Source: Thraustochytrium aureum (lineage: Eukaryota). From it: a stretch of DNA of 64,000 nt. Location of the stretch: NCBI GenBank assembly GCA_012862495.1, contig BLSG01000411.1, forward strand, positions 1 to 64,000, given 5' to 3'. A program made the translations under genes and the position numbers. Shown piece after piece: positions 760 through 32,925 of this stretch. Every line of letters starts with the position of its first letter. The stretch's first letter is position 1. The notes under the pieces were generated by a model, which saw nothing but the letters and a program-made list of their open reading frames with translations, was not told where the DNA came from and did not search any database.

Positions 760-1680
760 TCACATGTTCACAGCAAGAGGTTCCTCCACGAGCATCTTGT
801 TCTTGATTGGGCTCTGGAATCTTTGCAGCATCGCCCGAAGCTGTCCGCCCGAGCCGATATCGAGAATCGTCCCCGGACGAGGGTCCGCAACGATCGCGCC
901 AAGAATACTTTCCCACTGAACCGTTGCGACGACTTGCTGCGCGAGACTCGCCAGAGTGTCGTCGTCCGGCCTGTACAGCTGCCCGGTCACATTGGAAAAG
1001 ACTTCGTCTACGCAGGTCACGCTTGGCTGCTGCTGCTGCTGCTGCTGCTGCGAAAAGTCGCAAGTGAGGGCGAGCGCTGCAATACGCTCCGCGACATGGC
1101 GCATCGACGCAGTGTGAAAAGCGCCGCCAAGACCCTTTTGCGGCACGGCACGGGAAGCGATTTCTGGTGTCCAACTGATTGCCGCCAAGTCCTCCCGAGG
1201 CCCCGCAACAGTCACACAGAAAGGAAAGAGTCGCGCAGCGATGGCGCAAGGAATGAGGCTTTCATTCTTGACGCCATGCAGAGTCACCATGGCGCCGGGA
1301 TGCTCGTCGCATGCACGCGCCATTGCGTCGGCACGAACTTTGGCCACGCGAAGCGCGTCTTTGAGACTCAACCGCCCAGCTGCAGCAACAGCTGCGACCT
1401 CGCCGACAGACAGGCCTGCAAATACGAGCTTGACGTCACTCTGGAAGAGCTCGGGGTGGACATTCCGCGCTCGGCAGACCGCGTCGAGTGCGCGCACTAC
1501 GATCGCAAGCTGTGCAAACTGGGTTTTCCCAAGCTGCGATGGTGTCAAGCGCGTCACGTCCAGGCCCAAAACTTCTTGCGCGACGCTAGCTAGCGTCGCG
1601 CTGTAGAGTGGCGCGCCAGCGGCTGGGCCGAACTCGATGCCCTGCCCAGGAAGCACAACCCACGTCACCCGCTGCACCAT
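760..1680 (-). CDS. Stand-alone malonyl-CoA:ACP transacylase (FabD/MCAT-like acyltransferase), 306 aa
   Basis: N-terminal VLPGQG; catalytic GLSVGE (Ser91); Arg116 in KVRADAM (+25 from Ser, as in E. coli FabD Ser92/Arg117); GAFHT; SNVTG; QQVVATVQW; ILDIGSG. No obvious N-terminal targeting extension. Contains a poly-Q8 insert. Confidence 0.92.
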   Translation of the reverse strand: MVQRVTWVVLPGQGIEFGPAAGAPLYSATLASVAQEVLGLDVTRLTPSQLGKTQFAQLAIVVRALDAVCRARNVHPELFQSDVKLVFAGLSVGEVAAVAAAGRLSLKDALRVAKVRADAMARACDEHPGAMVTLHGVKNESLIPCAIAARLFPFCVTVAGPREDLAAISWTPEIASRAVPQKGLGGAFHTASMRHVAERIAALALTCDFSQQQQQQQQPSVTCVDEVFSNVTGQLYRPDDDTLASLAQQVVATVQWESILGAIVADPRPGTILDIGSGGQLRAMLQRFQSPIKNKMLVEEPLAVNM

Positions 1681-2764
1681 TTACTCTAGCTCTAGCTAGA
1701 GAGAGTTGTAACCTGGTGGGCAAGTGGNNNNNNNNNNNNNNNNNNNNNNNNNNNNNNNNNNNNNNNNNNNNNNNNNNNNNNNNNNNNNNNNNNNNNNNNN
1801 NNNNNNNNNNNNNNNNNNNNNNNNNNNNNNNNNNNNNNNNNNNNNNNNNNNNNNNNNNNNNNNNNNNNNNNNNNNNNNNNNNNNNNNNNNNNNNNNNNNN
1901 NNNNNNNNNNNNNNNNNNNNNNNNNNNNNNNNNNNNNNNNNNNNNNNNNNNNNNNNNNNNNNNNNNNNNNNNNNNNNNNNNNNNNNNNNNNNNNNNNNNN
2001 NNNNNNNNNNNNNNNNNNNNNNNNNNNNNNNNNNNNNNNNNNNNNNNNNNNNNNNNNNNNNNNNNNNNNNNNNNNNNNNNNNNNNNNNNNNNNNNNNNNN
2101 NNNNNNNNNNNNNNNNNNNNNNNNNNNNNNNNNNNNNNNNNNNNNNNNNNNNNNNNNNNNNNNNNNNNNNNNNNNNNNNNNNNNNNNNNNNNNNNNNNNN
2201 NNNNNNNNNNNNNNNNNNNNNNNNNNNNNNNNNNNNNNNNNNNNNNNNNNNNNNNNNNNNNNNNNNNNNNNNNNNNNNNNNNNNNNNNNNNNNNNNNNNN
2301 NNNNNNNNNNNNNNNNNNNNNNNNNNNNNNNNNNNNNNNNNNNNNNNNNNNNNNNNNNNNNNNNNNNNNNNNNNNNNNNNNNNNNNNNNNNNNNNNNNNN
2401 NNNNNNNNNNNNNNNNNNNNNNNNNNNNNNNNNNNNNNNNNNNNNNNNNNNNNNNNNNNNNNNNNNNNNNNNNNNNNNNNNNNNNNNNNNNNNNNNNNNN
2501 NNNNNNNNNNNNNNNNNNNNNNNNNNNNNNNNNNNAGCCTCTGGCCTCTGGCCTCCTGCAGGGGACTTGCACAAGATGCTCGCGCGGTCAAGCAGACCCC
2601 AGTTGTCTCTTGGCGATCATCAGCACTCCAGCGGAACGACTGATTAGACGAGCAAGAGCAAGACGTTCGAAGGACACAAGCAGGCCCAGCGTGTAGTAGA
2701 CCTGGTCGAAGCGCACCAAGCCCCAGCCGTGAAGACTCGACACATCACAAACCGAACAACCACC

Positions 2765-3650
2765 ATGCTTCTTCTCCTGTTCTCCGGCGTAGGAGCTGTG
2801 TCGGCGAGCACCGCGCGGCTTGTCAACCAAATCGTTTCCGACACAGCTCGCTATGAGCAAGTCAAGGAGCGCCTCGCCTTGAAGCACGGCATCGACTTGG
2901 CCGCGGCCTGGGCGCGTCTCGCGGACTACGACGAAAGCAACTCGCGAGCTCTCAGCGCCCTCGACCAAGTACTGATCCAGTTTGCTGTTCAAATCGCTGG
3001 CGCCGAGATCGCTCTTCGCGCCGTCGGGGCCGACGCCGAGATCGTCGTGCTTGGGCATAGCGTCGGTGAACTTGCAGCTGCTGTTGTGGCCGGCCACCTC
3101 GGCCTTGACGAGGCCGTGGACGCTGCTGTGCATATTGCTGCGGTCGCGAGCAAGCTGAGCGGGGACCTGTGGTACGGCAGTCTTGCTCCCGGCGACGTGG
3201 TCGCTTCCGTCAATCACGGCGACGACGACGGCACCACTTACGGGGCTATTGCCACGAGAGCGAGAGAGCCCCCTCGCGAAGGGCTTCGCCGCATCCACAC
3301 GGGCTTTCCCTGGCACCACCCTGACTACAAGGCATTCGTGGACGGCGATTCAGAGGCGCGCAGTGAGGCTGGTTCGCCGCCGGTGGAGGCGAAATGCAAG
3401 CCTCTCGCGCTCTCTCTCGTGGGCGGACTCGCCAACCAAGAGAAAGGAGCCCTTGGCGCAGCGTACTGGGCAAAGTGGGCCTATACGGGTGTAAACCTTG
3501 CCGGGGCCCTCGTCGCGGTGCGCAACGCATTCCCAATCGACTGCGTAGTCGAGATCTCGGCGCACCCCATGCTCTTGGGGTCGGCGCGCGCTTCGTTCAG
3601 CAGCTCGTGCAAAGACTACGTTGGGCTTTTCAACCGCGAGACGGGCCTGG
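2765..3650 (+). other. PKS domain 1: acyltransferase (loading-type, compact)
   Basis: LLFSGVG (cf. FPGQG); GHSVGE at 3053-3070; Ile (3134) at the conserved Arg position; FPWHH (cf. AFHS); YWAKW...VNL; VVEISAHPML (cf. FLEIGPHPVL). Confidence 0.85.
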
Positions 3651-6600
3651 ACCAAGACGCGCGCCTGGCGCTTGTGAAGCGCGGCGGCGAGGGTCTGCTC
3701 CAGGCGATTCTCCGCACGCTTGGGCCGACGTTGAACCCGGACAAGACTTGGGCGGAGAACGGGCTCAACAGCGCCGACCTCGTCTTGGCGTGCCAAAAGC
3801 TACGCCGCTCTGGGACTGTCCCACTGCTCAAGCCGCACCATCTGTTCCGCATGGTTTCTCCCCGCGCCCTGGCGCTTGTCACGGAGGCAGAGGAGTTGAG
3901 CCCCCAAGCGGAATCCAAGGCCACAGCGCAGCGCGCAGTGGTCGTCCAGGCCATGAGCTGCTTGCTACCGGGCAACTTGCGCTCTGCGGCCCAGTTGGCA
4001 GGGTTTGCAGCCACCCAGGGCGACGCAGTTCGACGCGATACCGGGTTCGACACCGGCAAACATGCTGCGGGGTTTCTGGGCGATATTTGCATCGACCTTG
4101 CCAAGTTTGGCTTGTCTCGCAGCGAGGCGGCCACGCTCGATCCACAGCAAGCTTTGGTATTGGAGTGCGTGGACAAACTCTTGGAGGAGAACGGCATCAT
4201 GCAGCTCCCGGCGAGTACCGGCGTGTACATCGGCGCCTGGAACTCGGAGTTTGCAGGTGACAGGTCTTCCGTGTTTTACCCGACCGGGACAAACCCGAGC
4301 CTCGTAGCTGCCAGAGTGAGCCATATCTACAAGCTCCACGGCCCGTGCAAGGTGATAAACTCTGCATGCGCGTCATCGCTCGAGGCGGTATTGGAGGCGT
4401 TTCGAGACGTGTCCTCCGGCAAAGTAGAGTGCGCTCTCGCCGGCGGCGTCAACCTGCTCTGGGACCCGCACTTTACCGAGTGCATGGCCCAGTCTGGATT
4501 CCTCGGCCCCACGCAACGCTGCCGGTCGTTTGACGCGTGCGCCGACGGCTACGTGCGCTCCGAGGGCTGCGGCCTCGTCCTCCTTGCGCGAAAAGGTGCG
4601 CTGTCTCCGCAGTATCACTGCGAGATTCTGGGCGGAGCATCCAACCAAAATGGCGGTCGCAGCGCCAGCATCACTGCACCAAGCCCGGTCGCCCAGGAAG
4701 AGTGCATCAGGATGGCTCTTGCGGACGCTGGTCTAAGCCCCGCCGACGTCGACTATGTCGAGTGCCACGGGACTGGAACCAAGCTTGGCGACCCCATCGA
4801 GTGGGCAGCCCTGGCGCGCACCATCGGCGCCCACCGGACAGCGGCAAGGCCGTGTCTAGTAGCAAGCATCAAGAGCAACATTGGCCACCTCGAGTCTGCA
4901 GCAGGCGTCGCCGGCCTCATCCACGCCGCCACGGTACTCTCGAGCAAGGTTGTCCCACGTCCGGGCAACCTGTCCAAGCCCAACCCCCTCCTCGACGCCT
5001 GCGAGGGCCTCAAGCTCGCCTTCCCTGCGAACGTGGCTGCGCCGCATCTTGCCGTCGCGGGCGTCTCGTCGTTCGGCTTTGGCGGCAGCAATGTGCACCT
5101 TGTCCTCCGTGCCAGCCCGAACGTGCCACTCCCGCAGCCGCCGATGCTCGCATCCTCGTCGGCGGACAGCGTCTTTGTCTTTGACCGGTCACAGCCGCGC
5201 GTGGCGCCTGTGCTGCTGCCCGTGGCGCCAGAGCAGCAGGGCAAACCTCCAGCCCTGGCAAGTGCAGAAGCGAAAGCAGCTGGAATCACGGTGGAGGCCA
5301 CCTTCTGGGAGGTCGTGCATGCAGTTGCGGGCGAGGTCACACCCGCCGACGCGATCCTCCGCAGCGGACTCGACTCGCTCGGGCTCACAGAACTCTTCTT
5401 GCGCATCGAGCAGCGGCTTGGCGTGGACGCCGCCCACCTCAGCGAGTTCCTCGCAGGCGAGCACTCTTGGGGCGACCTGCGCGAGCGCGTTCTCCGCACA
5501 GCGAGCCCGGTGCAGCAGCAATCGGCTGCCGCGACGCCGCCCAAGCAGCAGCAGCTCCAACAGACGGCAGCCTCGCCGCCCACCGAAGTCGAAGACGAGG
5601 GCGGGTGCGGGCACTTCACCTGGGCACAGCCTCGCTTCAACGAGGCGATCCGGACGACGCACGTGGGGTCGCTGCCGCGCAGCAGCGACAAAGACGAACA
5701 GTACAAGGAGCTGCACAGCCTGTTGCAAAAGCAGCTCAGCATCGGGCTGACGTACATCAACGATGGCGAGGTTGGGCGTATCGACTATGCGACGGCGGTG
5801 CTCACCCGGATGACTGGCTTTGAGGAGCAGGCCGCGTCTGCTGCGCCACAGCCCCAGGACTTGGAAGACATGCCCTGTGTGGCGCGGCGGTTCCTTCGTC
5901 GAGCGGGGCTCATTACACTGAACAAGTCGGTCTTGGCCGCCAACCCGCACTGCGTTGGCGCGGTGAAGTACATTGGGGAAAACTCGCTCAAGCGCGAGCT
6001 GGAAGCAGTTCGTCGCGCCCTTGCCCTGAACAATGCTGGGCTGCCTGGCCAGGCGTTTTGGACAGCGCCGTCCCCCGGCACGCTGGCCATGTTTTTCCAG
6101 AACGACGCGGTGGACGAGTATCCCTCGTACGACGACTATTTGGAAGCTCTCGGCGCCGCATTGCGCTGCGAATACGCGGCGATCGTCAGAAACGGCTTTG
6201 TGCTGCAGGTGGACTGTCCTGACCTGGCCATGTCACGCCACACGCGCTTCAAGCACTTGGGCCTGTCGGCTTGGAAGGCCGTGGTGGCAAAGCACGTCGC
6301 GGTCCTCAACCGCGCCCTCGAGGGCCTCCCGCGAGCGAGCGTGCGCGTGCACGTGTGCTGGGGCAACTACGCGGGAACTCACCACCGCGACGCGGCCGCG
6401 GCCGACGTCCTCTCCGCCGCGTTCACCATCAATGCCGGTGGGATCGGCTTTGAAGCTGCCAACCCGCGTCATGCAGCCGACTGGAGCTCGATGCAAGCTT
6501 GCGACATCCCGCATGACGTGGTGGTCTACCCAGGAGTCGTCGACACGTGCTCCATGTCCGTGGAGAGCCCTGCTGTGGTCTGCGAGCGCATATGCCGCTT

Positions 6601-8578
6601 TGCAAAGCTCGTGGGCCCTTCGCGCGTCGTGGCCAACACCGATTGTGGCTTTTCGACGACGGCCCAGGCACAGGGGCTTCCAGGCGAGGTCGCATGGATG
6701 AAGTTGCGAGCCCTAGTCGCGGGGGCGCGAATGGCCACGCACGCGATGTTCCCGAAGGCGTTTCCGGCCTTTGTCCCGCGCCCAAGCGAGCGACGGTTCT
6801 TGTTCTGTGCTGGGCCGCTCGAGGCGCAGCGCATCTGTGATGGAAAGCTCAGCTCTCGCGCGTTTGACCTTGGCGAGACTCGGGTTGTGTTCACAAGCTT
6901 GCGGGAACCAGGCGATGCGGCAGCGGTGGCGCAGCACGTTCGCCTCTTTGTGGACACGCCTGTGAGCTTTGACACTGACGGCTCCGAGAGCGCAGAGGCC
7001 TTTGCGGGCGAAGTTCGGAGCTTGCTTGCGAACGGGTCGCGCTGCTCGCCAGCGTTCCCCTGTGAGGCGCCCTTGCGAGCGCTAGAGCCAAGCGACATGG
7101 TCGTCGGCTCAGGTTGCGAAACGGCGCTCCGCGAGGCGTACGACGTGGTGGTGGTGGGCGCCGGCGTGGTAGGTCTGCTTGCGGCCAAGCACCTTGCGGC
7201 CAACGGCGTCGACGTCGTGGTGCTCGAGAAGGAGTCGTTTGTGGGTGGCATTTGGACAACCTTTGCAAACCCCACAAGCCAAGTAAACAGCTCCGAAGGG
7301 TCCTACAGGCTCAACGACACGTACCGCAAGCGCCCGAACCGAGACCACAGCACGACGGCCGAGGTCCGCGCAGACATTCTCGAGATCGCGCGCGACCTGC
7401 TCGCCAACGGGCGGCTGTTCACCCAGACCGCAGTCTCTTTTGTGGAGCGATCGGGGCCAGACCAAACAGACTACACGGTGACCCTTGCAAGTGGCAGCAA
7501 CACTGTCCGCTGTAGGGGCGTGATTTTGGCCATCAACGACCGCGTCGGCCAGCCGCGGCCCGTCAAGTGGCCCGGCCAAGGCGCCTTCCAGGGCACCGTG
7601 GTCGACGGCTTTGGCGGAGACGCGCGCGCTCACAAAGTCGACTGGGCCGGCAAGCGCGTGGTGATCGTGGGAATGGGCGCCTTCGCGGTTGAAAACGCGC
7701 GCACTGCGCTAGAAGCGGGCGCACGTAACGTTGTCGTCGTGGCGCGTCGGCACGGGACGGTGTGCCCCAAGTACATCGACTACATAAACTTTGTGCACCG
7801 AGACAGTGTGGGAGCGAATGGGCGCGACATGGACACGTCGCACAACAGCAAGAACATGTTTCTGTGGCGAAAGCTTTACGACGCGAGCCACTGCACAATG
7901 CCAGAGTGCTGGCTCGGCCTGATCAAGCACACCGGCCATACCATCAGCGTGTCGGACGTGTGGTTCGTGGGCCACCATCTAGGTCTCCTTGAGACGCGCC
8001 AGGGCGATCTCGAGCGCCTGGTGGAGAATGGCGTGGTCCTTGCTGGGTCCGGCGAGCTGATCCAGGCGGACGTTGTGGTGAGGTGCACGGGGTTCGAGCG
8101 CAACGCAAGCGCTGTGCCCACCCTCACGCCGTACCGCTCTATGACGCCCGTCAACTACTTGGACACAAACTTGATGTACCTGGCCGACGCGTTCATTGAC
8201 GACGACGCGTTCAACTCGTTCTTTGGGTCGAGCGTCGTCGAGATGGCAAAGTTCTTCGTCATGGTTTTCGAGCACTTTTTCAAGGGCCGAGACCTCGACG
8301 CGCTCGCGCACCCCGCTCTAGCAGCGCTCGTCGACGTCCAGGATCGCAAGTGGACCGACTACATTCGCGGCGCGGAGCATCTCGTCAACGCGGTTCCAGA
8401 CATCCGCCTCAAAGCGGACGCTCTCCTTCGTCGTCGTTACCGAGACTTTGTTGAGGCCCAGTCCGTTGAGGAATACATCGCCGCAAACAAGCGCGAGTGG
8501 GTCGAGCTCCACGACCTGCTCACCCAAGGCGCCGTGGAGCAGAGTTGCATGCTCCCGTATCCATCATGGGCCAAATAA
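2765..8578 (+). CDS. Hybrid type-I PKS: AT-ACP-KS-ACP-MetE-core-like-unknown-flavin monooxygenase, ~1937 aa, apparently intronless
   Basis: One uninterrupted ORF. In-frame TAG upstream at 2645, first ATG at 2765, stop TAA at 8576-8578. Each domain has recognisable motifs (see sub-features). Confidence 0.9.
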   Translation: MLLLLFSGVGAVSASTARLVNQIVSDTARYEQVKERLALKHGIDLAAAWARLADYDESNSRALSALDQVLIQFAVQIAGAEIALRAVGADAEIVVLGHSVGELAAAVVAGHLGLDEAVDAAVHIAAVASKLSGDLWYGSLAPGDVVASVNHGDDDGTTYGAIATRAREPPREGLRRIHTGFPWHHPDYKAFVDGDSEARSEAGSPPVEAKCKPLALSLVGGLANQEKGALGAAYWAKWAYTGVNLAGALVAVRNAFPIDCVVEISAHPMLLGSARASFSSSCKDYVGLFNRETGLDQDARLALVKRGGEGLLQAILRTLGPTLNPDKTWAENGLNSADLVLACQKLRRSGTVPLLKPHHLFRMVSPRALALVTEAEELSPQAESKATAQRAVVVQAMSCLLPGNLRSAAQLAGFAATQGDAVRRDTGFDTGKHAAGFLGDICIDLAKFGLSRSEAATLDPQQALVLECVDKLLEENGIMQLPASTGVYIGAWNSEFAGDRSSVFYPTGTNPSLVAARVSHIYKLHGPCKVINSACASSLEAVLEAFRDVSSGKVECALAGGVNLLWDPHFTECMAQSGFLGPTQRCRSFDACADGYVRSEGCGLVLLARKGALSPQYHCEILGGASNQNGGRSASITAPSPVAQEECIRMALADAGLSPADVDYVECHGTGTKLGDPIEWAALARTIGAHRTAARPCLVASIKSNIGHLESAAGVAGLIHAATVLSSKVVPRPGNLSKPNPLLDACEGLKLAFPANVAAPHLAVAGVSSFGFGGSNVHLVLRASPNVPLPQPPMLASSSADSVFVFDRSQPRVAPVLLPVAPEQQGKPPALASAEAKAAGITVEATFWEVVHAVAGEVTPADAILRSGLDSLGLTELFLRIEQRLGVDAAHLSEFLAGEHSWGDLRERVLRTASPVQQQSAAATPPKQQQLQQTAASPPTEVEDEGGCGHFTWAQPRFNEAIRTTHVGSLPRSSDKDEQYKELHSLLQKQLSIGLTYINDGEVGRIDYATAVLTRMTGFEEQAASAAPQPQDLEDMPCVARRFLRRAGLITLNKSVLAANPHCVGAVKYIGENSLKRELEAVRRALALNNAGLPGQAFWTAPSPGTLAMFFQNDAVDEYPSYDDYLEALGAALRCEYAAIVRNGFVLQVDCPDLAMSRHTRFKHLGLSAWKAVVAKHVAVLNRALEGLPRASVRVHVCWGNYAGTHHRDAAAADVLSAAFTINAGGIGFEAANPRHAADWSSMQACDIPHDVVVYPGVVDTCSMSVESPAVVCERICRFAKLVGPSRVVANTDCGFSTTAQAQGLPGEVAWMKLRALVAGARMATHAMFPKAFPAFVPRPSERRFLFCAGPLEAQRICDGKLSSRAFDLGETRVVFTSLREPGDAAAVAQHVRLFVDTPVSFDTDGSESAEAFAGEVRSLLANGSRCSPAFPCEAPLRALEPSDMVVGSGCETALREAYDVVVVGAGVVGLLAAKHLAANGVDVVVLEKESFVGGIWTTFANPTSQVNSSEGSYRLNDTYRKRPNRDHSTTAEVRADILEIARDLLANGRLFTQTAVSFVERSGPDQTDYTVTLASGSNTVRCRGVILAINDRVGQPRPVKWPGQGAFQGTVVDGFGGDARAHKVDWAGKRVVIVGMGAFAVENARTALEAGARNVVVVARRHGTVCPKYIDYINFVHRDSVGANGRDMDTSHNSKNMFLWRKLYDASHCTMPECWLGLIKHTGHTISVSDVWFVGHHLGLLETRQGDLERLVENGVVLAGSGELIQADVVVRCTGFERNASAVPTLTPYRSMTPVNYLDTNLMYLADAFIDDDAFNSFFGSSVVEMAKFFVMVFEHFFKGRDLDALAHPALAALVDVQDRKWTDYIRGAEHLVNAVPDIRLKADALLRRRYRDFVEAQSVEEYIAANKREWVELHDLLTQGAVEQSCMLPYPSWAK
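3695..3880 (+). other. PKS domain 2: ACP1
   Basis: LNPDKTWAENGLNSADLV..L....LKPHHLFRMVSPRALA. GLNS phosphopantetheine-site variant at 3761-3772 and a typical ACP C-terminal pattern. Confidence 0.75.
3935..5120 (+). other. PKS domain 3: ketosynthase with intact Cys-His-His triad
   Basis: LDPQQALVLE; NSACASSL (Cys at 4367); FDACADGYVRSEG; ECHGTGTKLGDPIE (His at 4766); KSNIGHLESAAG; GVSSFGFGGSNVH. Confidence 0.97.
5295..5500 (+). other. PKS domain 4: ACP2
   Basis: ILRSGLDSLGLTELFLRIEQRLGV with canonical GLDS (Ser at 5375-5377), followed by a Q/P/A-rich linker. Confidence 0.9.
5645..6740 (+). other. PKS domain 5: cobalamin-independent methionine synthase C-terminal (core) / epoxyalkane:CoM transferase-like Zn domain
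   Basis: TTHVGSLPR; QLSIGLTYINDGE; LQVDCPDLA; HVCWGNYAGTHHRD (His/Cys Zn ligands at 6350-6358); FEAANPRH; YPGVVD; RVVANTDCGF (Cys at 6644); AWMKLRALVAGA. Confidence 0.88.
7136..8575 (+). other. PKS domain 7: class B flavin monooxygenase (FMO/BVMO-like)
   Basis: YDVVVVGAGVVG...VVVLEK...VGGIW (FAD Rossmann fold); GKRVVIVGMGAFAVE...ARR (NADPH Rossmann fold); ADVVVRCTGF; degenerate fingerprint FQGTVVDGFGG. Confidence 0.85.
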
Positions 8579-9249
8579 GAAAACAAGCGCTGTAAGGGAN
8601 NNNNNNNNNNNNNNNNNNNNNNNNNNNNNNNNNNNNNNNNNNNNNNNNNNNNNNNNNNNNNNNNNNNNNNNNNNNNNNNNNNNNNNNNNNNNNNNNNNNN
8701 NNNNNNNNNNNNNNNNNNNNNNNNNNNNNNNNNNNNNNNNNNNNNNNNNNNNNNNNNNNNNNNNNNNNNNNNNNNNNNNNNNNNNNNNNNNNNNNNNNNN
8801 NNNNNNNNNNNNNNNNNNNNNNNNNNNNNNNNNNNNNNNNNNNNNNNNNNNNNNNNNNNNNNNNNNNNNNNNNNNNNNNNNNNNNNNNNNNNNNNNNNNN
8901 NNNNNNNNNNNNNNNNNNNNNNNNNNNNNNNNNNNNNNNNNNNNNNNNNNNNNNNNNNNNNNNNNNNNNNNNNNNNNNNNNNNNNNNNNNNNNNNNNNNN
9001 NNNNNNNNNNNNNNNNNNNNNNNNNNNNNNNNNNNNNNNNNNNNNNNNNNNNNNNNNNNNNNNNNNNNNNNNNNNNNNNNNNNNNNNNNNNNNNNNNNNN
9101 NNNNNNNNNNNNNNNNNNNNNNNNNNNNNNNNNNNNNNNNNNNNNNNNNNNNNNNNNNNNNNNNNNNNNNNNNNNNNNNNNNNNNNNNNNNNNNNNNNNN
9201 NNNNNNNNNNNNNNNNNNNNNNNNNNNNNNNNNNNNNNNNNNNNNNNNN

Positions 9250-11941
9250 AATTGCATTCGTCGTCCGCTGTCGGCTGAGAGCACGTGTACAGTGTATCCT
9301 CGTGACCCTCCTCTACGTCCTCGTCATCATCAATAGACTCTCCCGTTTGATTGCATTCTCGGGCGGACGCGTCCCTCCCCTCGACTTCACTATTCCGAGT
9401 CGTGAGCGCCGCCGTCGTCTTGCCAGAACAGTCACTCCAGTCAGCAGAGTAGTTGCCTTTCGAGAGGCGGGGAACGAGGTCGAGCTTGTCAAGCCCGTTC
9501 CCGTCCGTGTACGAGGCTGGGCGAATGTTGTGCATCGACTTGGAAGCAGAGAGCGAAGTCGGCCTGCCCACTGTACTTGAACCGATCCTCATTCGCGAGT
9601 CCAAGCCCAAACTTTCGACAGCTGACGCATCGAAGAACGAGCCGTGGTTCTTGATCGTATCGACACGATGAAGGATCTGGGACTGCAGCTCGCGGCGTTT
9701 GGCAAGCACCGCGCTGGCTGGTGCCCCTGCGGAGGCGCCGTCAACGCCTTGACGACTAAAGCAGCGCAAGATCTTTTGGGCCACCATGGCGTGCATGTCC
9801 GCGTCCAATTTTGAAGCAAAGACCTGCCTGTCGAACAGCAAGCAGCTTACGTCTCCTTTTGCGCGGCATGTGGCGGTGCGCTCTGTGCCGGCATACATGC
9901 CCATCTCGCCAAAGTAGCCCCCCTCGTGTACTGTGTCGAGCAGGGTCCACTTGGTTCCAACGTCATCCGGCACAAAGTCATTCGACTCGGTTGTGGGGCC
10001 GAAGATCTCCACCGATCCTTTAGTGACAATATAGCAGTCCGCACCCATCTCGCCGCACTTGATGATGAGGTCGCCGTCCTGGTACTTTTGGCGCCGGTAG
10101 CATCCGCTCATGACGATCTGGTCCATCATCACCTTGGCGAGGTGCATGTCGTCCTTGAGGTCATCGTCTGATGAGAGCGCGTTGAAAAACTTTTGCAGCT
10201 TTCGACGCACGATGGGAAACGGGGGCCGCTTTTCCGGCAAAGGGTCCCAGCACTGCTCGATGAGACGCTTGATATCGGCCGGCACGTTTGGCGGGATATC
10301 GAGGCGAAAGTCCGCGTGAGCAACCTTGTGTGGAAACTCCAACGCATCGAGCGGCGTCATTTCCTCAAACGGGTTTGCCTCGGTCGCGATCTCAAGCAAC
10401 AGTATCCCAAAGCTGTAGACATCAGCCTTGGTCGTGTAGCGCTCTGCGCGAATCATCTCTGGTGCGCGCCAGAACGGTGTGCCTACTGGCGTCGTTGCCG
10501 CGCCTTGCAATATGCGGCTCGTCCCAAAATCGGACACCTTGGAAGTGAAAGTGGAGGACACGAGCACGTTTTCCGTCTTGAGGTCACGATGAACGATATT
10601 GAGTCCATGCAAGAAGGCCATCCCCTTTGCAATGTCGATTGCCAATTTGCACTTGGGGTCTTCCCAGCTAAGCTGCAAGGCGCGGTCTTGGAGTACCGAG
10701 CGGAGCGAACCGCGCGACATGAGCTCCAGGACCATGCCGACCATCTCCGACTCCTCGCTCCACGTGACGCCCATAAGTTGGACGATGTTGGGGTGGCGTA
10801 GGCCCTTCAGAAGCTTCACCTCGGCAATAAATTGTTCGCTGCTCGACTTGTTGAGGAGCGCCGCTGGGAGGCGCTTAAAAGCCACTGGCGCGTCCATATA
10901 GTAGGCTTCAAACACCTCCCCCATGGCGCCGCGGCCCAGGAATCCGCGCATGTCGAGGTCGTCGGGGGCAATGCAAAGGCGCGACATGGTCTGGTTTTCG
11001 CGTAGACGCTTGAAGAATTCCTCCACTTGCGTTCGCTCTGGATGAAACTCATCTGCCGTTTTGGACCAATTGGAAAACCCGCTCTTGCGTCGTCGAGCCT
11101 TCACCGCCTCGTCGAGTAGCTTCTTCCGCATTTCCGCATTGTGGCTTGACATGAACCACGTTCGACGTCCCAGCTCATCCCTTGCAACGCAAAATGAGAG
11201 CATCGCGAGCATGCACAGAATGGTAACGAGTACACTGCTCATGGCACTGAAATGAAACCGGCCGTCTTTGCTCATGACGAGTAGCAAAGCCCAACCGGCC
11301 AGCCCCACACACGTCGCTAGTCCAGCGCCTATTAAACGCGAGGTGTGGACTGGACTTAGCATGCACAAGGAGGCAAAGTGGATGACTGCAAGCGTCGCGA
11401 GTTCCCCAAGCGTCTCTGCGCCTGTGAAAGTCTCGTTACCCCATGTGAGGAGTGGGCTCCCCAACGCGACGCTCATTGTGAACGCACCGGTGACCAGAGA
11501 GCTGTCCCTCATGTAAAATCGCTCCACGTACTTGACAACGAGCCACCATGTGAGTGCCCCGCCGCAACAGAGCCCGTAAATGACGCCCAGCGCCCCCGCC
11601 TCGCTACCGTGTCTACTTAGCAGGACTATCCACCCAACTGCGAACGCACCCGTGACACGGCCCTCCATTCGGTCGACAAAGTCCAATTCCTCCTGCTGCC
11701 GTCGCTCACACTGTGCGTGGACGTAGGCTTGCTCGACCTTTGGGTCGTTAAACCTAAACATGCTCATTCGCAGAGTGTCCCCCAGTATCGACTCGAGGTG
11801 CGTGAGCTGATCAAGGTCTGTGGACAAGCCCGTCTGCAGCTGGCCGCCAAAGCTCACGACCTCGCTTTCGAAGTCATTGAACCCGCCGCCGCCGCCGCCA
11901 CCGCTGCGGCTGCTTGGGTGAACGCGGCTCGACGGATTCAT
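9250..11941 (-). CDS. Multi-pass membrane TKL-family protein kinase with C-terminal cNMP-binding domain (3' end lies in gap)
   Basis: About 6 hydrophobic segments (~11650-11185). Kinase motifs GRGAMG, VAFK, HRDLKTENVL, DFG, GTPFWRAPE, DVYSFG. cNMP domain IIKCGEMG...YFGEMGMYAGTERTATCRA. First ATG at 11941. Confidence 0.88.
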
Positions 11942-12866
11942 GTAGCTGGCGCTGTCGCTGAAGGGGAGCCCGTTTTGTTCGACCCAGCCGCGGCGCGCGT
12001 CTTGCCCGCGCCGGCGGCGGAGCTCGAAAGCCTGCCTGTTTGGGACAAGGCTGACACGGCCTTCGCCCACTCGCTAGTAGGAGAGACGCCTGGCCTCTCT
12101 AGACTCCGCTCTGCGCGGTCGCCCTCGTTGGTTTTGCGCAGTCGTGTTGAGAGCGGGCCTGCCTGCCTGCCCGCCTGCCCGCCCACCTTCCTTGTCTGTG
12201 TGGGCGCCAAAGCGTTCTCGGGCTATTGCGAGCCACACGGGCCGCTCCAAACGCGCTCTTTGGGTCCCTGTGCTGGCCCTCGCGCCTGCGCGTTGTTGTT
12301 CGCTCTGCTGGCTGGCTTCCTGCAGGCTGATTGCTTGGATCATCACCAGCGCCTGTTGCCTGTTGCATGTGCATGTCCGTTGGAGCAGGGATTTGCCTTG
12401 CAGCGCAATGTTCGACGCGCCGTTCCTTGCTCTTCGCAAGTATTCGGGAGCGGCTCGTTAAAATTGAGTGGGTTCGCCGTACACAGTAGCTTTATCTACG
12501 TGGTGCGGAATCATTCGAGACTGTCTCAAAAGAGTTGATGCTGCCCACGCTCCCTCTGGACTGGCTTGGTTTTAACGGATAGTAGGTAGACCCACCAAGT
12601 TGCATTGCATTCGTTGTCTGCTTGTCCGTCGCGGTCCGACGTACAGTAGCAGCGAGGCGCCCGCTTTGTGCTATCGGGTACTGATGTAAGCCACGAAGCC
12701 TTCATACCGTGTGCCTTGACCCAGGTCGTCGCGACGACGGCGGCCAACGGGACGAGTCGCTCGCTGGGCAGCCGCGAAGGATCAGCAGAGGCTGGCAGCT
12801 GCGCAAACCAGCCAAAGGCGCTTGTCGACCAGCACCGCCGACTCCCAACAAACGAGCACCGGAAAG

Positions 12867-15272: not shown

Positions 15273-16187
15273 CTATAGGCGTGCGGGCCCGTCCGGACGA
15301 AAGGTTGTCGGGAAAAAAGCCTCCTCTGGCTCCTTGGCACCTGGAATGACATACCTCCCATAGATGTAGTCCGGTTGACGATCCGTGCGCCATTCAACGT
15401 CACGACGAACGAGGTGGACACCCAGCGCACGACGGTGCCGCGAGGTCGAGCTGCTTGCCGCAGAACCGTGCCACACATCCTGATGGTGGATTATGGCACT
15501 GCCGGCCTCGACAGCGACCTTGACCGTCTGGGGCACCTCCGCGAGGCCAGCGCGCGACGCGGCCAAGAGCAAGGGCACCCTGTAATCCTCAGTAGCATGG
15601 AACGAGGACGTCACCGCAGTTGTTGCCTCTGCGGCGCTTGCCCAGAGGTGAGACCCCGGGCAATACTCGACCACGCCAGTCTCTTCGTCAGCATCGTCGA
15701 GCGCAATCCACACGGTAACAGAGTTGTTCTCAAGCGGCGTGAATTGCGCCGAGATGTACGCAGAATCTTGGTGAAACCCGACAGAGGATGCAAGAGGGGG
15801 CTTCCAGAGAACGTCGTCTTGTGCAAGCCTTGCCCCGGCGACCCATCTTGAGAGCCCTGCTGCAAGCTTGCCGATCGGCTCGGCCAGCACGACCTTGGCG
15901 ATCGTGCGGTCGCTCTTCCATCCGTTGACGATCTCCCTAAAGGCATCCGGGCGAGAAATGCCTTTCCGCCAGTGCCACTCATCCGGGTAGACGCCTGTGT
16001 CAAACTGGCCGGCGAATAGGGGCTCAAAGCGGTCACGCGCGGCACGTACGGTGGTTTGGTCCACGAGGTTGTCGACCTTGACAAACCCGTCTCTTGCAAA
16101 CTGGTCCCGCGCTTGCTCCAGCGCCGCTGGGTTCCTTGCGAGCTCTGTGGCATCAAACGACTGCGGCGCTGCGCCGTTCCGCTCCAT
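15273..16187 (-). CDS. Phytanoyl-CoA dioxygenase (PhyH) family Fe(II)/2OG dioxygenase
   Basis: QFARDGFV; WKPP...FHQD; VTVWIALDDADEETG..YCPGSH; HHQDVWHGS..S...RR. Confidence 0.92.
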   Translation of the reverse strand: MERNGAAPQSFDATELARNPAALEQARDQFARDGFVKVDNLVDQTTVRAARDRFEPLFAGQFDTGVYPDEWHWRKGISRPDAFREIVNGWKSDRTIAKVVLAEPIGKLAAGLSRWVAGARLAQDDVLWKPPLASSVGFHQDSAYISAQFTPLENNSVTVWIALDDADEETGVVEYCPGSHLWASAAEATTAVTSSFHATEDYRVPLLLAASRAGLAEVPQTVKVAVEAGSAIIHHQDVWHGSAASSSTSRHRRALGVHLVRRDVEWRTDRQPDYIYGRYVIPGAKEPEEAFFPTTFRPDGPARL

Positions 16188-18533: not shown

Positions 18534-20570
18534 CGTTTACTGCTTCGGCAACTGTGGACCGCTCGTGCGCACGAGGCACCGTAGTGCTGGTGTGGAGACT
18601 CGACTTTGCTATCGTTTGTTCCTGGCCAGCCAGGACGCCCTCCAAGAGCTGGGCGCAGATGAATCCGGGGCGGCAGAAACGCCACCCTGGTCCGCGCTGC
18701 GCTAGCCGAGACCAGCGGCCGCGGGCTGAGCGCTCCCCACAGCGTCTCCTGGGCGTGCGAGGCCTTCCGTCGACCGGGTCGAGCGGGAGCCAAAGCGAGC
18801 GCGGGCAAGCTTTTCCGGCCTGGAGCGGCGGCGCTGCAGGGTCTTGGCGGTCGGCTTGGGGCTGCTGGAGGAGGCCGCGGCGTGCGATCCCGGGCTCCTC
18901 GCCAGGTGCTGTGCTGTCTGCGTGCCTCGCTGGCTGTTGCGTTGCGTTGCAGGGGTCTGTCTGCTTGCTTGTCCTTGCTTGTGCTTGCATACTCTACGGG
19001 AGTGCGCTGCTGTTTCCACGAGGGAGGAGGCCACTGAAAAAGGCGAAAAAATGGGAACTTTGAAAGACGTGAGCATGGAGAGGGGGAAGCTCCAGTCTGA
19101 GAGGAGAGGGCGTGCGAGAGAGGGAGCAGGGAGCTGGGAAAGGGACGGCTCCGAGTCGGAGCAGGAGTAAGCGCGTCCCTCCGACGCCATCTCCCCAAAA
19201 GCAACGATACAAGAGAAAAACAAAAACAAAATGAAAAATGACGAAAAGTGCTCCTCTGCAAACGCGCTGTGAGGATGTGAGGAGCCGGGGGGCGGGATTC
19301 AGAATTCAGGATTCAGAATTCAGAATTCAGATCAGAATTCAGCGAACGCCCTCTGCACCGGCACAGGCGTCGGAACGGATACAAAAGGAGGGAGGGCGCC
19401 TCGCTCGCTCTCTCCTCCACGCGGGAGGCCAATCCTTCCGCGCCTCCCTCGCGCAGCTCGAAGAACATTCTTCAACGCAAAGGATTTCCAGAGGCGGACC
19501 TTCGTTTTCTCGGCGCCAGCACGACGATGTTTTTCGACCTCCTTACAAAACGGCGTTCGACGCCTGCGAGCGAGTAGGTAGAAGCGTAGAAGCGTTTTGT
19601 GCGGCGTCAACTTGTTTCTGAACTCAGATGAGCTGACCGCCCTTTCAAGACCAAGAGACTCCTCGTTTCAGGGTGAGAGAGCACGCGTCCAGCTCGTCGC
19701 CACCAAACCAACCCACCCAAGATGGCTCTCCGAGATGCTCCACTCACTCCCCGTGGTACCTCCGAGAACTTTTCATCGTCTTGCTGAGCATGAATCCTCC
19801 CCAGTGTGGCACAAGTCAGAGAGAGAGTATCCATTGCCCAGTGTCAAGGACTGCGAGGCAAGATGGCGCCTCTTGTTCACGCACACGCTGTGCAGGGGAC
19901 AGCGCGCTCTGCGTCCACTCCTCTGCGTCCGCTCCTCGGCTGGTCTCAGTCTGCTCGGCACCGCGTTCGGTGTTGTCGTGACGCATGTGGGCGCTTCGTG
20001 ACTCGTCTTTGCTCGTCAAGAGGGCAGCATTCTCGTCACCTGCGTGAGGCCTGGTCTTGGATCTGGGTGTGCATCTGTACTAGTAGAATCCACCTGACTC
20101 GGAGGCTAGCCGGCCACTGGCAGAGGTTGCATTCGCGGAAGTGAGGAGAAAGTGCAAGACCCCTCAAGGCCCCCTTGTGCGAGCGGCGCCCCTCCTGCTC
20201 TCTCCCAGAGGCGCCGCTCCGACTCCCTCACACCAGAAGAGGCTATTCTCACAAGAGGCTCCGACTCCGAGTCGTCAGTGACTCGTCACACAAGAACCTG
20301 CCTGCTCACTCTATCCTTGATTGTTTCCTCCTTGCCGAGTGGTTTGGTGCAGCGATCGATCACACGGGCCAGTCCATTTTCAACCTCCAGTCACATCTCT
20401 GTTGACAGGCAAAGTCGGTCTGTCGCAGTCTTGGGCGCGGTCCGAATCATCACTCGCATTCACTGTCATGACTCTCGTCTCTCTCTCCTTTGCGCGCAGA
20501 CCGGAGCAGACCCGCGACCCAGACAGCTCTGTTGCACAGGCCGAGCGACGAACAAGCGCCCCCAACCACG

Positions 20571-22412
20571 ATGAGCGACGAAGGCAACGCTCCTGCACAC
20601 GGCGAGGTCTCGCTGGCCTCAACGCAGCCGCACGGGCGCAGCGTCTGCATGGTTGCCGCTCTTGTGGTCAACGTCGCGTTGCTGATCTACTCGCACGTCG
20701 GGATCAACGCGATCGTCTACTCGTCACTGGAGATCGGGAGCGGACTTGACGAGAACGGCAGCCTCAACAAGACTGGCCAATGCACGCCCAGCGACGAGTC
20801 CGTTTGGTTTGGCAACGAACAGCTCAACACCACCGATCGATGCCTCGTATGGGATTCCATCGATTTCCTGAACAGTCGCCCCTGCCCGTACGCCAGCAAG
20901 ACTGCCGCGCGAGACGCGTACAACGATTTCATGTTCGCGTACGGCCTGTGCGTCGGCTTCGAATTTGGGTTTTGTGAAGTCAACCCTTCCGAGGACCTGG
21001 CCGAGTTTCAGCAGATCGCGAACGCGGAGTGGGGCTTTTCGGGAACTTGCGCCGAGTGCATGTTTGCGCAATTCGAATGCACCGTGTCCAGCTGCGTCGC
21101 TGAATGTGCTTCAAACCTCGCTTCCCTCGGCTGCCCGGGTGCTGACTCTGCGTGTGCGGATTGTGTCGAGGATAAGTGCTCGCCTGCCTTCAAGTCTTGC
21201 AGCGGCCTGCCGACGACCCCGGTTCAGGACTACCAGTATGACAATTGCCCCGACCTCGATGGTTCTGAACCGAAAATCCAGAGCGAAGAGTGCCTCATCG
21301 TGAGCGAGCTCGATATCGAACTCTACAAAGTCTTCGAGGTGCGATTCGGCAACGCCGTGACAAAGGCTTGGGAGGGGGGCGCGCGTTTCCTGGCTCTGCT
21401 GGTGGCGATCGCGTCCGGCGTGTGGCCCTACATGAAGAACATCATGATGGCCATTACCTGGTTCGTGCCGCTCTCTCCTAGCCGCCGCGATTATGTTCTC
21501 CTCTGGCTCGCTCGCCTCGGCCGCTGGTCGCTCGTAGACGTCTTTGCGGTAATTCTCATCATCGTCGGCCTCCGCATAGACAAGGAAATCAGCTCTGGGA
21601 CCTACCTTCTCGTCCGCTCCGAGTCAAGTGCTGCGATCTACTGCTTTGCAGTTGCCGCTGTTATGGCGCTCGTTCAGGGCGAGGTGATCCGCCGCATCAA
21701 TCGTAACGGGATCAAGCGCGCCCCAGCATACACCGTCAGCCTGCCAGAGCCGCTGTCCAGCGGCGCGCGCAATGCCCTCCGCGGCTCCACTTTGGCGCTC
21801 TCTCTGGTTTCGATCGCCCTCGCCGCTGTTGGCCTCACCATGGTGAACATCGAGTTCGAAATGCGCGGCATCGCCGTCTCTTTCAAGGGGCCAAACCTGT
21901 ACAAGTATACCGGAATCGAGGTGGGCACCAGCCTCGTCGACGCCTGCCAGCTTCAGGGCCTTGGCGAGTACTTTTTGCTCATCGTCTACTTTGCAACCGT
22001 GGTGCTGTGCCCTGCTCTTGCGCTGCTTGGCTTCATTGCGCTTGCGGTTATGCCGGCGCGTCTCATGGCGTCCAATCGCGGCCTTGTCCGCATCATCAAT
22101 GTGCTGGCCAACTTTCAGTGCCTCGACGTCTTTCTGCTCTCCATGGTCGTCCTTATCGCTCAGTTTGAGCCCCTTATCGATGGCTCGATTGCCGCCGAAG
22201 CCGCGGCAATTTGCGGCGAGGACGTCGAGGGCGACTGCCTCAAGTTTGTTGGGACCCTTGAGCTCGGCGCAGTGTTTGTTGGCGCCAGCGTTGTGACGTT
22301 CTGGGTAGCCCAGATTTTATCGTTGTGGGTGCAGAGGCACTGGCGATTCCACGCAATTGGCATTGCCACGATCGAGGATGCCTCAAAGGAGGTCACAACG
22401 GAGTGGAAATAG
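20571..22412 (+). CDS. Membrane protein with Cys-rich lumenal/extracellular domain and two PqiA-like domains
   Basis: N-terminal TM, many CxxC motifs, LGRWSLVDVF and FQCLDVFLL (PqiA-type W-S-x-x-D-V-F motif), multiple TM helices. Confidence 0.7.
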   Translation: MSDEGNAPAHGEVSLASTQPHGRSVCMVAALVVNVALLIYSHVGINAIVYSSLEIGSGLDENGSLNKTGQCTPSDESVWFGNEQLNTTDRCLVWDSIDFLNSRPCPYASKTAARDAYNDFMFAYGLCVGFEFGFCEVNPSEDLAEFQQIANAEWGFSGTCAECMFAQFECTVSSCVAECASNLASLGCPGADSACADCVEDKCSPAFKSCSGLPTTPVQDYQYDNCPDLDGSEPKIQSEECLIVSELDIELYKVFEVRFGNAVTKAWEGGARFLALLVAIASGVWPYMKNIMMAITWFVPLSPSRRDYVLLWLARLGRWSLVDVFAVILIIVGLRIDKEISSGTYLLVRSESSAAIYCFAVAAVMALVQGEVIRRINRNGIKRAPAYTVSLPEPLSSGARNALRGSTLALSLVSIALAAVGLTMVNIEFEMRGIAVSFKGPNLYKYTGIEVGTSLVDACQLQGLGEYFLLIVYFATVVLCPALALLGFIALAVMPARLMASNRGLVRIINVLANFQCLDVFLLSMVVLIAQFEPLIDGSIAAEAAAICGEDVEGDCLKFVGTLELGAVFVGASVVTFWVAQILSLWVQRHWRFHAIGIATIEDASKEVTTEWK

Positions 22413-32730: not shown

Positions 32731-32925
32731 GCCAACAGCAGAGAGCGGCCACCGAGCGAGCAGGGCTAGGCCAACAGCAGAGAGCGGCCACCGAGCGAGC
32801 AGGGCTAGGCCAACAGCAGAGCGCGGCCACCGAGCGAGCAGGGCTAGGCCAACAGCAGAGCGCGGCCACCGAGCGAGCAGGGCTAGGCCAACAGCAGAGA
32901 GCGGCCACCGAGCGAGCAGGGCTAG
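32731..32925. repeat. 39-bp minisatellite x5
   Basis: gccaacagcagag(a/c)gcggccaccgagcgagcagggctag repeated head-to-tail with no spacers; overlaps the MOSC stop codon. Confidence 0.95.

What the first reader, a model, noticed from the sequence alone, without database searches (positions are those of the whole stretch)
5645..6740. Zn-dependent thiol-alkylating (MetE-core / epoxyalkane:CoM transferase-like) domain inside a PKS
Seen: a single-barrel MetE-type domain with H-x-C, a Glu (FEAAN) and DCGF ligands intact, QVDCPDL where MetE has QIDEP, and no N-terminal folate-binding barrel. Known: this fold uses Zn to activate a thiol (homocysteine in MetE, coenzyme M in epoxyalkane:CoM transferase). 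The HVCWGNY.G.HH.D / EAANPRH pattern recalls bacterial methionine synthase II-family and EaCoMT-like proteins. Inference: it could add a thiol to an ACP-bound electrophile such as an epoxide made by the adjacent FMO, or form a thioether that the FMO then S-oxygenates. Either would be a new route for putting sulfur into a polyketide.
Basis: partly seen in the sequence, partly recalled or inferred. Interest (0 to 1): 0.82.

Follow-up and report, generated by a model that had tools for sequence, protein, structure and literature searches.

The report
PKS-fed, B12-independent methionine synthase
This stretch encodes the predicted zinc-binding barrel of a marine-protist enzyme already in print as 'MetE-fusion', which likely makes methionine without vitamin B12 and would draw the methyl group from acetate through its own polyketide-synthase module and a flavin oxygenase, rather than putting sulfur into a polyketide.

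Summary
In detail: 5645-6740 is a single-barrel MetE-type domain with intact Zn ligands inside a 1949-aa AT-ACP-KS-ACP-MetE-flavoprotein ORF. The architecture is published (Ma 2022, Schizochytrium 'MetE-like'; Rao 2024, 'MetE-fusion'), B12-responsive, never assayed. The homocysteine-binding Ser/Glu/Asp is invariant (55 of 55), whereas EtnE has Asn/Lys. The closest bacterial relatives form a PKS-MetE-flavoprotein operon with a SAM-I riboswitch upstream in 13 of 14 colinear loci. This scan noted that operon and an algal fusion before, on other DNA. Added here: the fused AT lacks the malonyl-binding Arg (38 of 38), so it is likely a starter AT; a malonyl-type AT lies head-to-head in this window and is fused in front in two homologues; no reductive or release domain was detected. 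Best reading: a B12- and folate-independent methionine synthase (about 0.8). Its methyl donor is most likely made on the ACP by Baeyer-Villiger oxidation of acetoacetyl-ACP to methyl malonyl-ACP (about 0.45, untested). Against: the flavoprotein lacks type I BVMO signatures, methyl migration is unfavourable, and many dinoflagellates with N-terminal-less metE need B12.

The parts
2729..8578 (+). MetE-fusion ORF, 1949 aa from GTG 2729 (first ATG 2765): AT-ACP-KS-ACP-MetE core-small alpha/beta domain-class B flavoprotein
   Evidence: 51 long homologues; contigs begin at 2721 in two runs
2768..3630 (+). Acyltransferase, Ser111 (GHSVG), no Arg at the FabD R117 position (Ile136), PWHH motif: predicted starter (acetyl-type) AT
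   Evidence: role inferred with PMC5655351
3680..3885 (+). First (loading) ACP-like domain, Ser348; boundaries approximate
   Evidence: Ser in 45 of 45 non-gap rows of a 63-row alignment; no profile hit in the window copy; two PP-binding stretches in the bacterial PKS
3932..5128 (+). Ketosynthase with Cys547, His680, His720 (elongating type)
5291..5503 (+). Second ACP, Ser883 (doubled in many homologues)
   Evidence: PF00550 E 1e-5; Ser in 59 of 59 non-gap rows
5645..6748 (+). MetE-core barrel: Zn ligands H1208, C1210, E1242, C1306; homocysteine-binding S981, E1014, D1162
5891..5923 (+). Insert F-x4-GLITLN typical of PKS-linked MetE cores (candidate ACP or substrate contact, untested)
   Evidence: 92-98% conserved in 65 PKS-linked rows, mostly a gap in 158 other rows; in 117 of 120 closest stand-alone hits
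6788..7048 (+). Small alpha/beta domain, the N-terminus of the separate bacterial flavoprotein; no family match
   Evidence: model secondary structure; no NCBIfam hit
7136..8575 (+). Class B flavoprotein monooxygenase-like domain (GAGVVG, GMGAFA, CTGF; conserved Asn1520)
760..1680 (-). Stand-alone malonyl-type acyltransferase (Ser91, Arg116, AFH), head-to-head with the fusion gene across an N gap; candidate trans AT that primes the ACP
   Evidence: covered by contigs of the same three runs; partnership inferred

Best explanation
The domain is likely the catalytic barrel of a vitamin-B12- and folate-independent methionine synthase whose methyl donor would be built on its own carrier protein: the Arg-less AT is predicted to load acetyl on the first ACP, the KS would condense it with malonyl on the second ACP to give acetoacetyl-ACP, the flavoprotein would insert oxygen (NADPH, O2; OocK-type Baeyer-Villiger regiochemistry) to give methyl malonyl-ACP, and Zn-bound homocysteine would take the ester methyl, giving methionine and regenerating malonyl-ACP. 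Net: acetyl-CoA + O2 + NADPH + homocysteine -> methionine + CO2 + CoA + NADP+ + H2O. The tethered malonyl is catalytic, which would explain the lack of an extender AT, reductive domains and a thioesterase; a malonyl AT in trans would only prime it. Shown: anatomy, residues, operon, riboswitch. Inferred: methionine as product (about 0.8). Most speculative: the oxygen-insertion and methyl-transfer chemistry (about 0.45 for the whole cycle).
For: Homocysteine triad and Zn ligands invariant in 55 of 55 fusion and 10 of 10 operon domains (triad defined in PMC7857596). All three genes together in 21 of 30 bacterial loci, the other 9 being short or cut contigs. SAM-I riboswitch about 130-400 nt upstream of the PKS gene in 13 of 14 colinear operons plus one partial locus. 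Schizochytrium homologue: transcript 4.21-fold up without cobalamin, 36% down with added Met, the only MetE domain in that genome (PMC9734096); Phaeocystis homologue 2-4-fold up without B12 (PMC10861871). Fused AT lacks the R117-equivalent in 38 of 38 and has Trp at FabD 200 in 38 of 38; dicarboxyl-CoA ATs share that Arg (PMC5655351). Malonyl-type AT adjacent in the window and fused in front in P0031 and P0033. KS triad intact. Flavoprotein's nearest solved structures are class B monooxygenases, among them the PKS Ox-ACP didomain 8ODW and BVMOs. OocK turns beta-keto thioesters into malonyl esters (PMC6174933). All 9 flavoprotein-bearing genomes among 401 of one class have a heme-copper oxidase-family gene against 199 of 401 overall (p 0.0017, not corrected for kinship, genome size or completeness; the family includes NO reductases). 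MesD is a precedent for an O2-dependent core synthase (PMC7857596).
Against: No enzyme of this family has been assayed in the papers read. The triad is equally invariant in 68 of 68 stand-alone relatives, many of which sit in a SnoaL/HisD-like/SDR/cupin cluster with no sign of methionine synthesis, so it does not prove the product. The flavoprotein has FQGTVVDG where the recalled FMO/BVMO fingerprint has His, and Asn where type I BVMOs have the catalytic Asp (my ungapped reading); its top structural matches DiatB and LbmA-Ox are not shown BVMOs (LbmA-Ox is tied to oxime formation, PMC7586987), and scores do not separate reaction types. OocK converted only medium- and long-chain substrates, 2 of 11. 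Methyl is a poor migrating group and carboxylate methyl esters are modest methyl donors (own knowledge). Hosts of the operon are labelled Desulfobacterales or deltaproteobacteria, usually anaerobes; G007 has no oxidase match. 11 of 12 dinoflagellates with N-terminal-less metE in PMC11197592 Table 1 need B12 (whether those genes are fusions is not stated; the one non-requirer, Effrenium voratum, has the fusion). Schizochytrium still grows poorly without cobalamin. 0 of 7 operons with an inverted metE gene have an Rfam riboswitch hit. 5 of 10 operon genomes also carry a MetH/BHMT-type domain.
Confidence: 0.45

Rival explanations
1. It is a methionine synthase, but the methyl donor or chemistry differs from the cycle above: another ACP-bound intermediate, another oxidative cleavage, or an outside donor such as betaine or S-methylmethionine with the other domains in a side role (Rao 2024 suggested Zn trafficking for the flavoprotein).
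For: All regulatory and residue evidence speaks for methionine, not for a given chemistry; flavoprotein lacks type I BVMO signatures; PMC10861871 section 13.
Against: Strict linkage of PKS, barrel and flavoprotein in bacteria and protists and intact KS, AT and ACP sites argue that the module makes the donor; a beta-keto thioester is the only product expected of a module without reductive domains.
Confidence: 0.33
2. One reading: the barrel adds a thiol (CoM, Cys, Hcy) to an ACP-bound epoxide or other electrophile, or makes a thioether that the flavoprotein S-oxygenates, giving a sulfur-containing secondary metabolite.
For: Shared H-x-CWGNY motif with EtnE; Asn-type class B flavoproteins include heteroatom oxygenases; the identity of the starter acyl group is inferred only, and a larger starter would give an S-alkyl-homocysteine.
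Against: EtnE pocket residues Asn/Lys absent in 55 of 55; EtnE outside the clade; SAM-I riboswitch on the operon; B12/Met regulation; no KR, DH, TE detected; no conserved tailoring or export genes beside the operon.
Confidence: 0.09
3. Ma 2022: the AT and KS act on the PUFA synthase and release EPA; the MetE domain only ties expression to B12.
For: EPA rises from 1.26% to 7.63% without cobalamin together with the transcript (PMC9734096).
Against: Correlation only in the passages and section read; the word 'knockout' does not occur in the main text; B12 lack also cut orfA/B/C transcripts by 75-85%; the same three parts occur in bacteria under a SAM riboswitch with no PUFA synthase genes noted beside them.
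Confidence: 0.05
4. Lin 2022: the N-terminal-less MetE is non-functional as a synthase, a relic carried along with the PKS.
For: Most tested dinoflagellates with such genes need B12 and metE hardly responds (PMC11197592).
Against: Seven functional residues invariant across proteins only 36-69% identical; core synthases work without the folate barrel (PMC7857596); frameshift-like breaks seen only in a few bacterial loci (L003, L007, L115).
Confidence: 0.05

Closest known systems
MetE-fusion of Phaeocystis antarctica and other marine protists (PMC10861871)
   Same: Same domain order (AT, PKS, PP-binding, MetE C-terminal, CzcO), same Zn motif; the paper names Hondaea and labyrinthulid homologues, the window's nearest named relatives.
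   Different: No biochemistry there; prokaryotic relatives described as lacking the other domains, whereas they carry them as adjacent genes; no methyl source assigned; flavoprotein read as Zn trafficking.
MetE-like complex of Schizochytrium sp. (PMC9734096)
   Same: AT, KS, MetE, CzcO in one gene; Zn ligands His233/Cys235/Glu267/Cys330, spacing +2/+34/+97 against +2/+34/+98 here; induced without cobalamin.
   Different: Interpreted as releasing EPA from the PUFA synthase; its sequence was not compared here.
Core methionine synthases MesA-D, above all MesD/MesX (PMC7857596)
   Same: Single barrel, Zn ligands and homocysteine triad; best structural match is 3RPD; MesD needs O2 and a partner.
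   Different: 18% identity to 3RPD; no DUF1852 or corrinoid domain in the ORF or operon; partner parts are a PKS module and a class B flavoprotein.
Epoxyalkane:coenzyme M transferase (EtnE, Nocardioides JS614; identified here by its place beside the alkene monooxygenase and CoM-synthesis genes; gene name recalled)
   Same: Same fold family, H-x-CWGNY and DCG motifs.
   Different: Asn/Lys in place of the homocysteine-binding Ser/Glu; 28% identity over the C-terminal half only; separate long branch.
PKS-associated oxygen-inserting flavoproteins OocK and LbmC-Ox; LbmA-Ox (8ODW)
   Same: Class B flavoprotein next to a KS-ACP module; OocK makes malonyl esters from beta-keto thioesters; 8ODW is the best sequence match in the PDB (E 4e-12).
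   Different: OocK and LbmC-Ox sequences were not compared; LbmA-Ox is tied to oxime formation; there the ester stays in a natural product, here it would be consumed as methyl donor.

Membership tests
MetE-fusion / MetE-like (Rao 2024, Ma 2022) | AT-KS-ACP-single MetE barrel-CzcO-type flavoprotein in one chain | tested here: met
MetE-fusion / MetE-like (Rao 2024, Ma 2022) | His, Cys, Glu, Cys Zn ligands | tested here: met
MetE-fusion / MetE-like (Rao 2024, Ma 2022) | Induced under B12 lack in this organism | not testable with these tools
   only contigs of three runs without conditions
Core (folate-independent) methionine synthases | No folate-binding barrel | tested here: met
Core (folate-independent) methionine synthases | Homocysteine-binding Ser433/Glu484/Asp599 equivalents | tested here: met
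   S981/E1014/D1162, 55 of 55
Core (folate-independent) methionine synthases | Methylates homocysteine | not testable with these tools
   indirect only: riboswitch, published expression
MesD | High identity to MesD and a MesX (DUF1852) partner | tested here: not met
   18% identity to 3RPD; no DUF1852 hit in the ORF or among operon neighbours scanned
Canonical MetE | Double barrel with folate site | tested here: not met
   single barrel; 23% identity over 172 residues to E. coli MetE
Epoxyalkane:CoM transferase | Asn/Lys pocket as in EtnE, and grouping with EtnE | tested here: not met
   (one EtnE sequence only)
Type I Baeyer-Villiger monooxygenase | FxGxxxHxxxW fingerprint and catalytic Asp (both recalled) | tested here: not met
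   FQGTVVDG and Asn1520
Class B flavoprotein monooxygenase fold | Two dinucleotide-binding motifs and FMO/BVMO fold | tested here: met
OocK/PedG clade of PKS oxygenases | Groups with OocK/PedG; oxidises beta-keto thioesters | not tested
   no OocK sequence was fetched
Type B loading module (AT-ACP for monocarboxyl starters) | AT-ACP didomain before the KS, AT without the carboxylate-binding Arg | tested here: met
   definition in PMC5655351

The most novel reading that the evidence does not exclude
A one-module PKS used in primary metabolism as a methyl-group factory: acetyl-CoA is turned, through acetoacetyl-ACP and O2-dependent Baeyer-Villiger oxidation, into a carrier-bound methyl ester that methylates homocysteine. 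It would be a methionine synthase needing neither cobalamin, folate nor SAM, spread across thraustochytrids, dinoflagellates, haptophytes, pelagophytes, green algae and some deltaproteobacteria.
Probability: 0.4. Interest if true: 0.92.

Novelty: new member of a known kind. Interest (0 to 1): 0.62.

Why it matters
Whether marine protists need vitamin B12 is judged from their methionine synthases, and three papers read here disagree on what this widespread protein does (methionine synthase, EPA regulator, relic). None assigns a methyl source. The anatomy set out here (starter-type AT, malonyl AT in trans, no release domain, SAM-controlled bacterial operon) gives one concrete cycle that a complementation test and a 13C-acetate label can confirm or kill. 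If right, it adds a new route to methyl groups and a PKS in amino-acid synthesis, and bears on B12-free culture of DHA-producing thraustochytrids.

Tried and rejected
No whole genome is held for the window, so MetH/MetE content and a second malonyl AT in the host are unknown, and synteny of the neighbouring AT in other eukaryotes was not checked. The Xanthobacter plasmid was not in the collection; EtnE from Nocardioides was used instead. Complex prediction (barrel with ACP) was not available, so ACP docking is open. VIA-align searches were not run, so the small alpha/beta domain has no fold assignment. No RNA holder on record was listed; the three runs are RNA by guess, so expression is not shown. 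A profile of alignment A2 against the PDB was dominated by KS hits and added nothing. SahR-like palindromes (patterns recalled) were not found in 17 intergenic stretches of 10 loci. Rfam found nothing relevant upstream of inverted operons at relaxed thresholds and nothing in the window. The SAM-II-like motif folds no better than shuffles (z -0.9 to -1.6; pseudoknots not modelled). The tree does not resolve the direction of transfer: eukaryotic fusions as one group 59/63, operon group 100/100, PKS-linked set with one stand-alone row 97/72 (52 of 229 rows, LG+G4). Absence of other methionine synthases in G001, G008, G084, G318 was not used as proof: the genomes are incomplete and MesB may escape the query. 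Literature searches for the proposed cycle listed no paper whose title or abstract start proposes it; most subscription papers are not in the library. Supplements were not read: Rao 2024 Figs S9-S11 may bear on the phylogeny, and the substrate structures of PMC6174933 Table 1 (images) on whether acetoacetyl-SNAC was tried.

Full report
What is there. The finding lies in one 5.85-kb ORF (2729-8578, +; 1949 aa) in an intron-poor eukaryotic window (kinases, mitochondrial carrier, zinc fingers, Vps54/syndetin-like). Its nearest named relative is Hondaea fermentalgiana (68% in the barrel), so the host is probably a thraustochytrid (inference). Domain order: AT, ACP-like, KS, ACP, MetE core, small alpha/beta domain, class B flavoprotein. 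The barrel model is confident and matches core synthase 3RPD best.

It is a known architecture. A search with the barrel among long proteins gave 51 hits among 7,989 scored candidates, with named ones from Hondaea, Amoebophrya, Symbiodinium, Polarella, Effrenium, Emiliania and Chrysophaeum; Chloropicon and Pedinella appear among cluster members. Ma et al. 2022 (PMC9734096; passages and section 9 read) described it in Schizochytrium as 'MetE-like', 4.21-fold induced without cobalamin and reduced 36% by Met, and tied it to EPA. Rao et al. 2024 (PMC10861871; passages, outline and sections 8, 9, 12, 13, 14 read) named it MetE-fusion, 2-4-fold up without B12, with no biochemistry in what I read. 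Lin et al. 2022 (PMC11197592; passages, sections 7 and 17) called such genes non-functional. PMC12478193 (passages) questions whether core-MetE homologues work in aerobic marine bacteria. This scan has two earlier notes on other DNA, one on the bacterial operon with its riboswitch and one on an algal fusion; I had reached both points before opening them and tested them here.

Which thiol? Price et al. 2021 (PMC7857596; passages) define the homocysteine contacts Ser433, Glu484, Asp599. These are S981, E1014, D1162 here, invariant in 55 of 55 fusion domains (one partial hit, P0009, dropped) and 10 of 10 operon proteins (L003, partial, dropped), while EtnE of Nocardioides JS614 has Asn, Lys, Asp. 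The same triad is in 68 of 68 more distant stand-alone relatives, many in an unrelated SnoaL/HisD-like/SDR/cupin cluster, so it shows an amino-acid thiol pocket, not the product.

The bacterial form. Among 80 genome loci found with the closest stand-alone homologue, the top 11 (Desulfobacterales, deltaproteobacteria, one Chloroflexota label) carry the same parts as separate genes. With 12 metagenome loci and 7 stretches from a class-wide search (9 of 401 genomes positive), 21 of 30 loci hold all three genes, 14 in the order PKS-MetE-flavoprotein and 7 with metE inverted; the other 9 are short or cut contigs. A SAM-I riboswitch (RF00162, 48-64 bits, cut-off 44.4) lies upstream of the PKS gene in 13 of the 14 colinear loci and in one partial locus, and in 0 of the 7 inverted ones. 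These loci are kin, not independent draws. Four of 9 inverted loci checked (7 complete, 2 partial) have a leader resembling the SAM-II sequence printed in PMC8494917 (passage), followed by a terminator-like hairpin; Rfam does not call it and the pattern was drawn from these sequences, so it is a lead only. One inverted locus has a PPTase-like gene next to the flavoprotein. A SAM-repressed leader marks genes that supply methionine or SAM (established knowledge); it does not fit a secondary-metabolite cluster.

What the module can make. KS Cys/His/His are present in 53, 50 and 52 of 52-53 non-gap rows and both ACP serines in all non-gap rows. No KR, DH, ER or TE was detected. The fused AT has no Arg at FabD 117 in 38 of 38 aligned domains and Trp at 200 and 250 in all 38; a relaxed motif finds 36 Arg-less ATs in 55 eukaryotic proteins, the other 19 having no AT motif in their first 520 residues. 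ATs for dicarboxylic CoA esters share that Arg, and AT-ACP didomains load other starters (PMC5655351, passages; HAFH motif, PMC7327777, passages). A malonyl-type AT (Arg at Ser+25, AFH) lies head-to-head with the gene in this window, and P0031 and P0033 carry such an AT fused in front; none was found in the 30 bacterial loci, which would rely on housekeeping FabD (inference). One condensation of a small starter with malonyl gives a beta-keto thioester. The flavoprotein is class B, nearest to DiatB, the PKS Ox-ACP didomain 8ODW and BVMOs without a clear winner. OocK converts beta-keto thioesters to malonyl esters (PMC6174933, parts 1-2 of 3 read); LbmC-Ox gave both regiochemistries (PMC7586987, passages).

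Mechanism. With acetyl as starter the malonyl ester is methyl malonyl-ACP, a methyl donor held next to a Zn-thiolate enzyme; transfer regenerates malonyl-ACP, so no extender AT or thioesterase is needed. This accounts for every domain, for the regulation, and for an O2 need like that of MesD. All 9 positive genomes of the class sample have a heme-copper oxidase-family gene against 199 of 401 (confounded by kinship, size and completeness). The chemistry is inferred, not shown; the main doubts are the atypical flavoprotein signature, the poor migration of methyl, the anaerobic labels of the bacterial hosts, and B12 need in many dinoflagellates.

Verdict. Observation confirmed; interpretation partly right on fold and coupling, probably wrong on purpose. 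New member of a published but unsolved kind. Methionine synthase about 0.8; the full acetate-to-methyl cycle about 0.45. The value lies in a direct test of where this widespread enzyme gets its methyl group. Searches for the cycle in print and in earlier scan notes returned nothing that proposes it.

Noticed in passing
L109:1569-1595, L099:197-223, L100:5112-5138, L010:10224-10250(-): SAM-II-like leader followed by a terminator-like hairpin upstream of the PKS gene in operons with an inverted metE; not called by Rfam; best likeness in L109.
   Followed up: partly
L012-L080, L081, L084: More distant MetE-core relatives (about 42% to P0054) of marine alphaproteobacteria and haloarchaea sit in a conserved cluster of several SnoaL-type proteins, a HisD-like dehydrogenase, SDR, cupin, RraA-like aldolase, hydrolase, LacI regulator and sugar ABC transporter: an unassigned, probably catabolic pathway.
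   Followed up: partly
P0008 (2225 aa): Tandem duplication of the MetE-flavoprotein unit in one chain; P0184 has the order KS before a second PKS part and no N-terminal AT; P0051 lacks the flavoprotein motifs.
   Followed up: no
L007:7201-8993, L115:2948-4784, L003:329-3015: Flavoprotein or PKS gene split over two frames in three bacterial loci; decay or assembly error not told apart.
   Followed up: no
L010:3299-3934(-): 4'-phosphopantetheinyl transferase-like gene directly downstream of the flavoprotein gene.
   Followed up: no
window 8564-12070(-) and 45748-48177(-): Membrane protein kinase with a C-terminal cyclic-nucleotide-binding domain next to the fusion gene; a cGMP-dependent-kinase-like gene further on.
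   Followed up: no
window 15273-16187(-), 20490-22412(+), 32922-34169(-): PhyH-type dioxygenase, PqiA-domain protein and MOSC-domain protein; no link to the finding seen.
   Followed up: no
window 1728-2536 and 8600-9249: Runs of N flank the fusion gene on both sides, so its promoter and the spacer to the neighbouring AT cannot be read.
   Followed up: no
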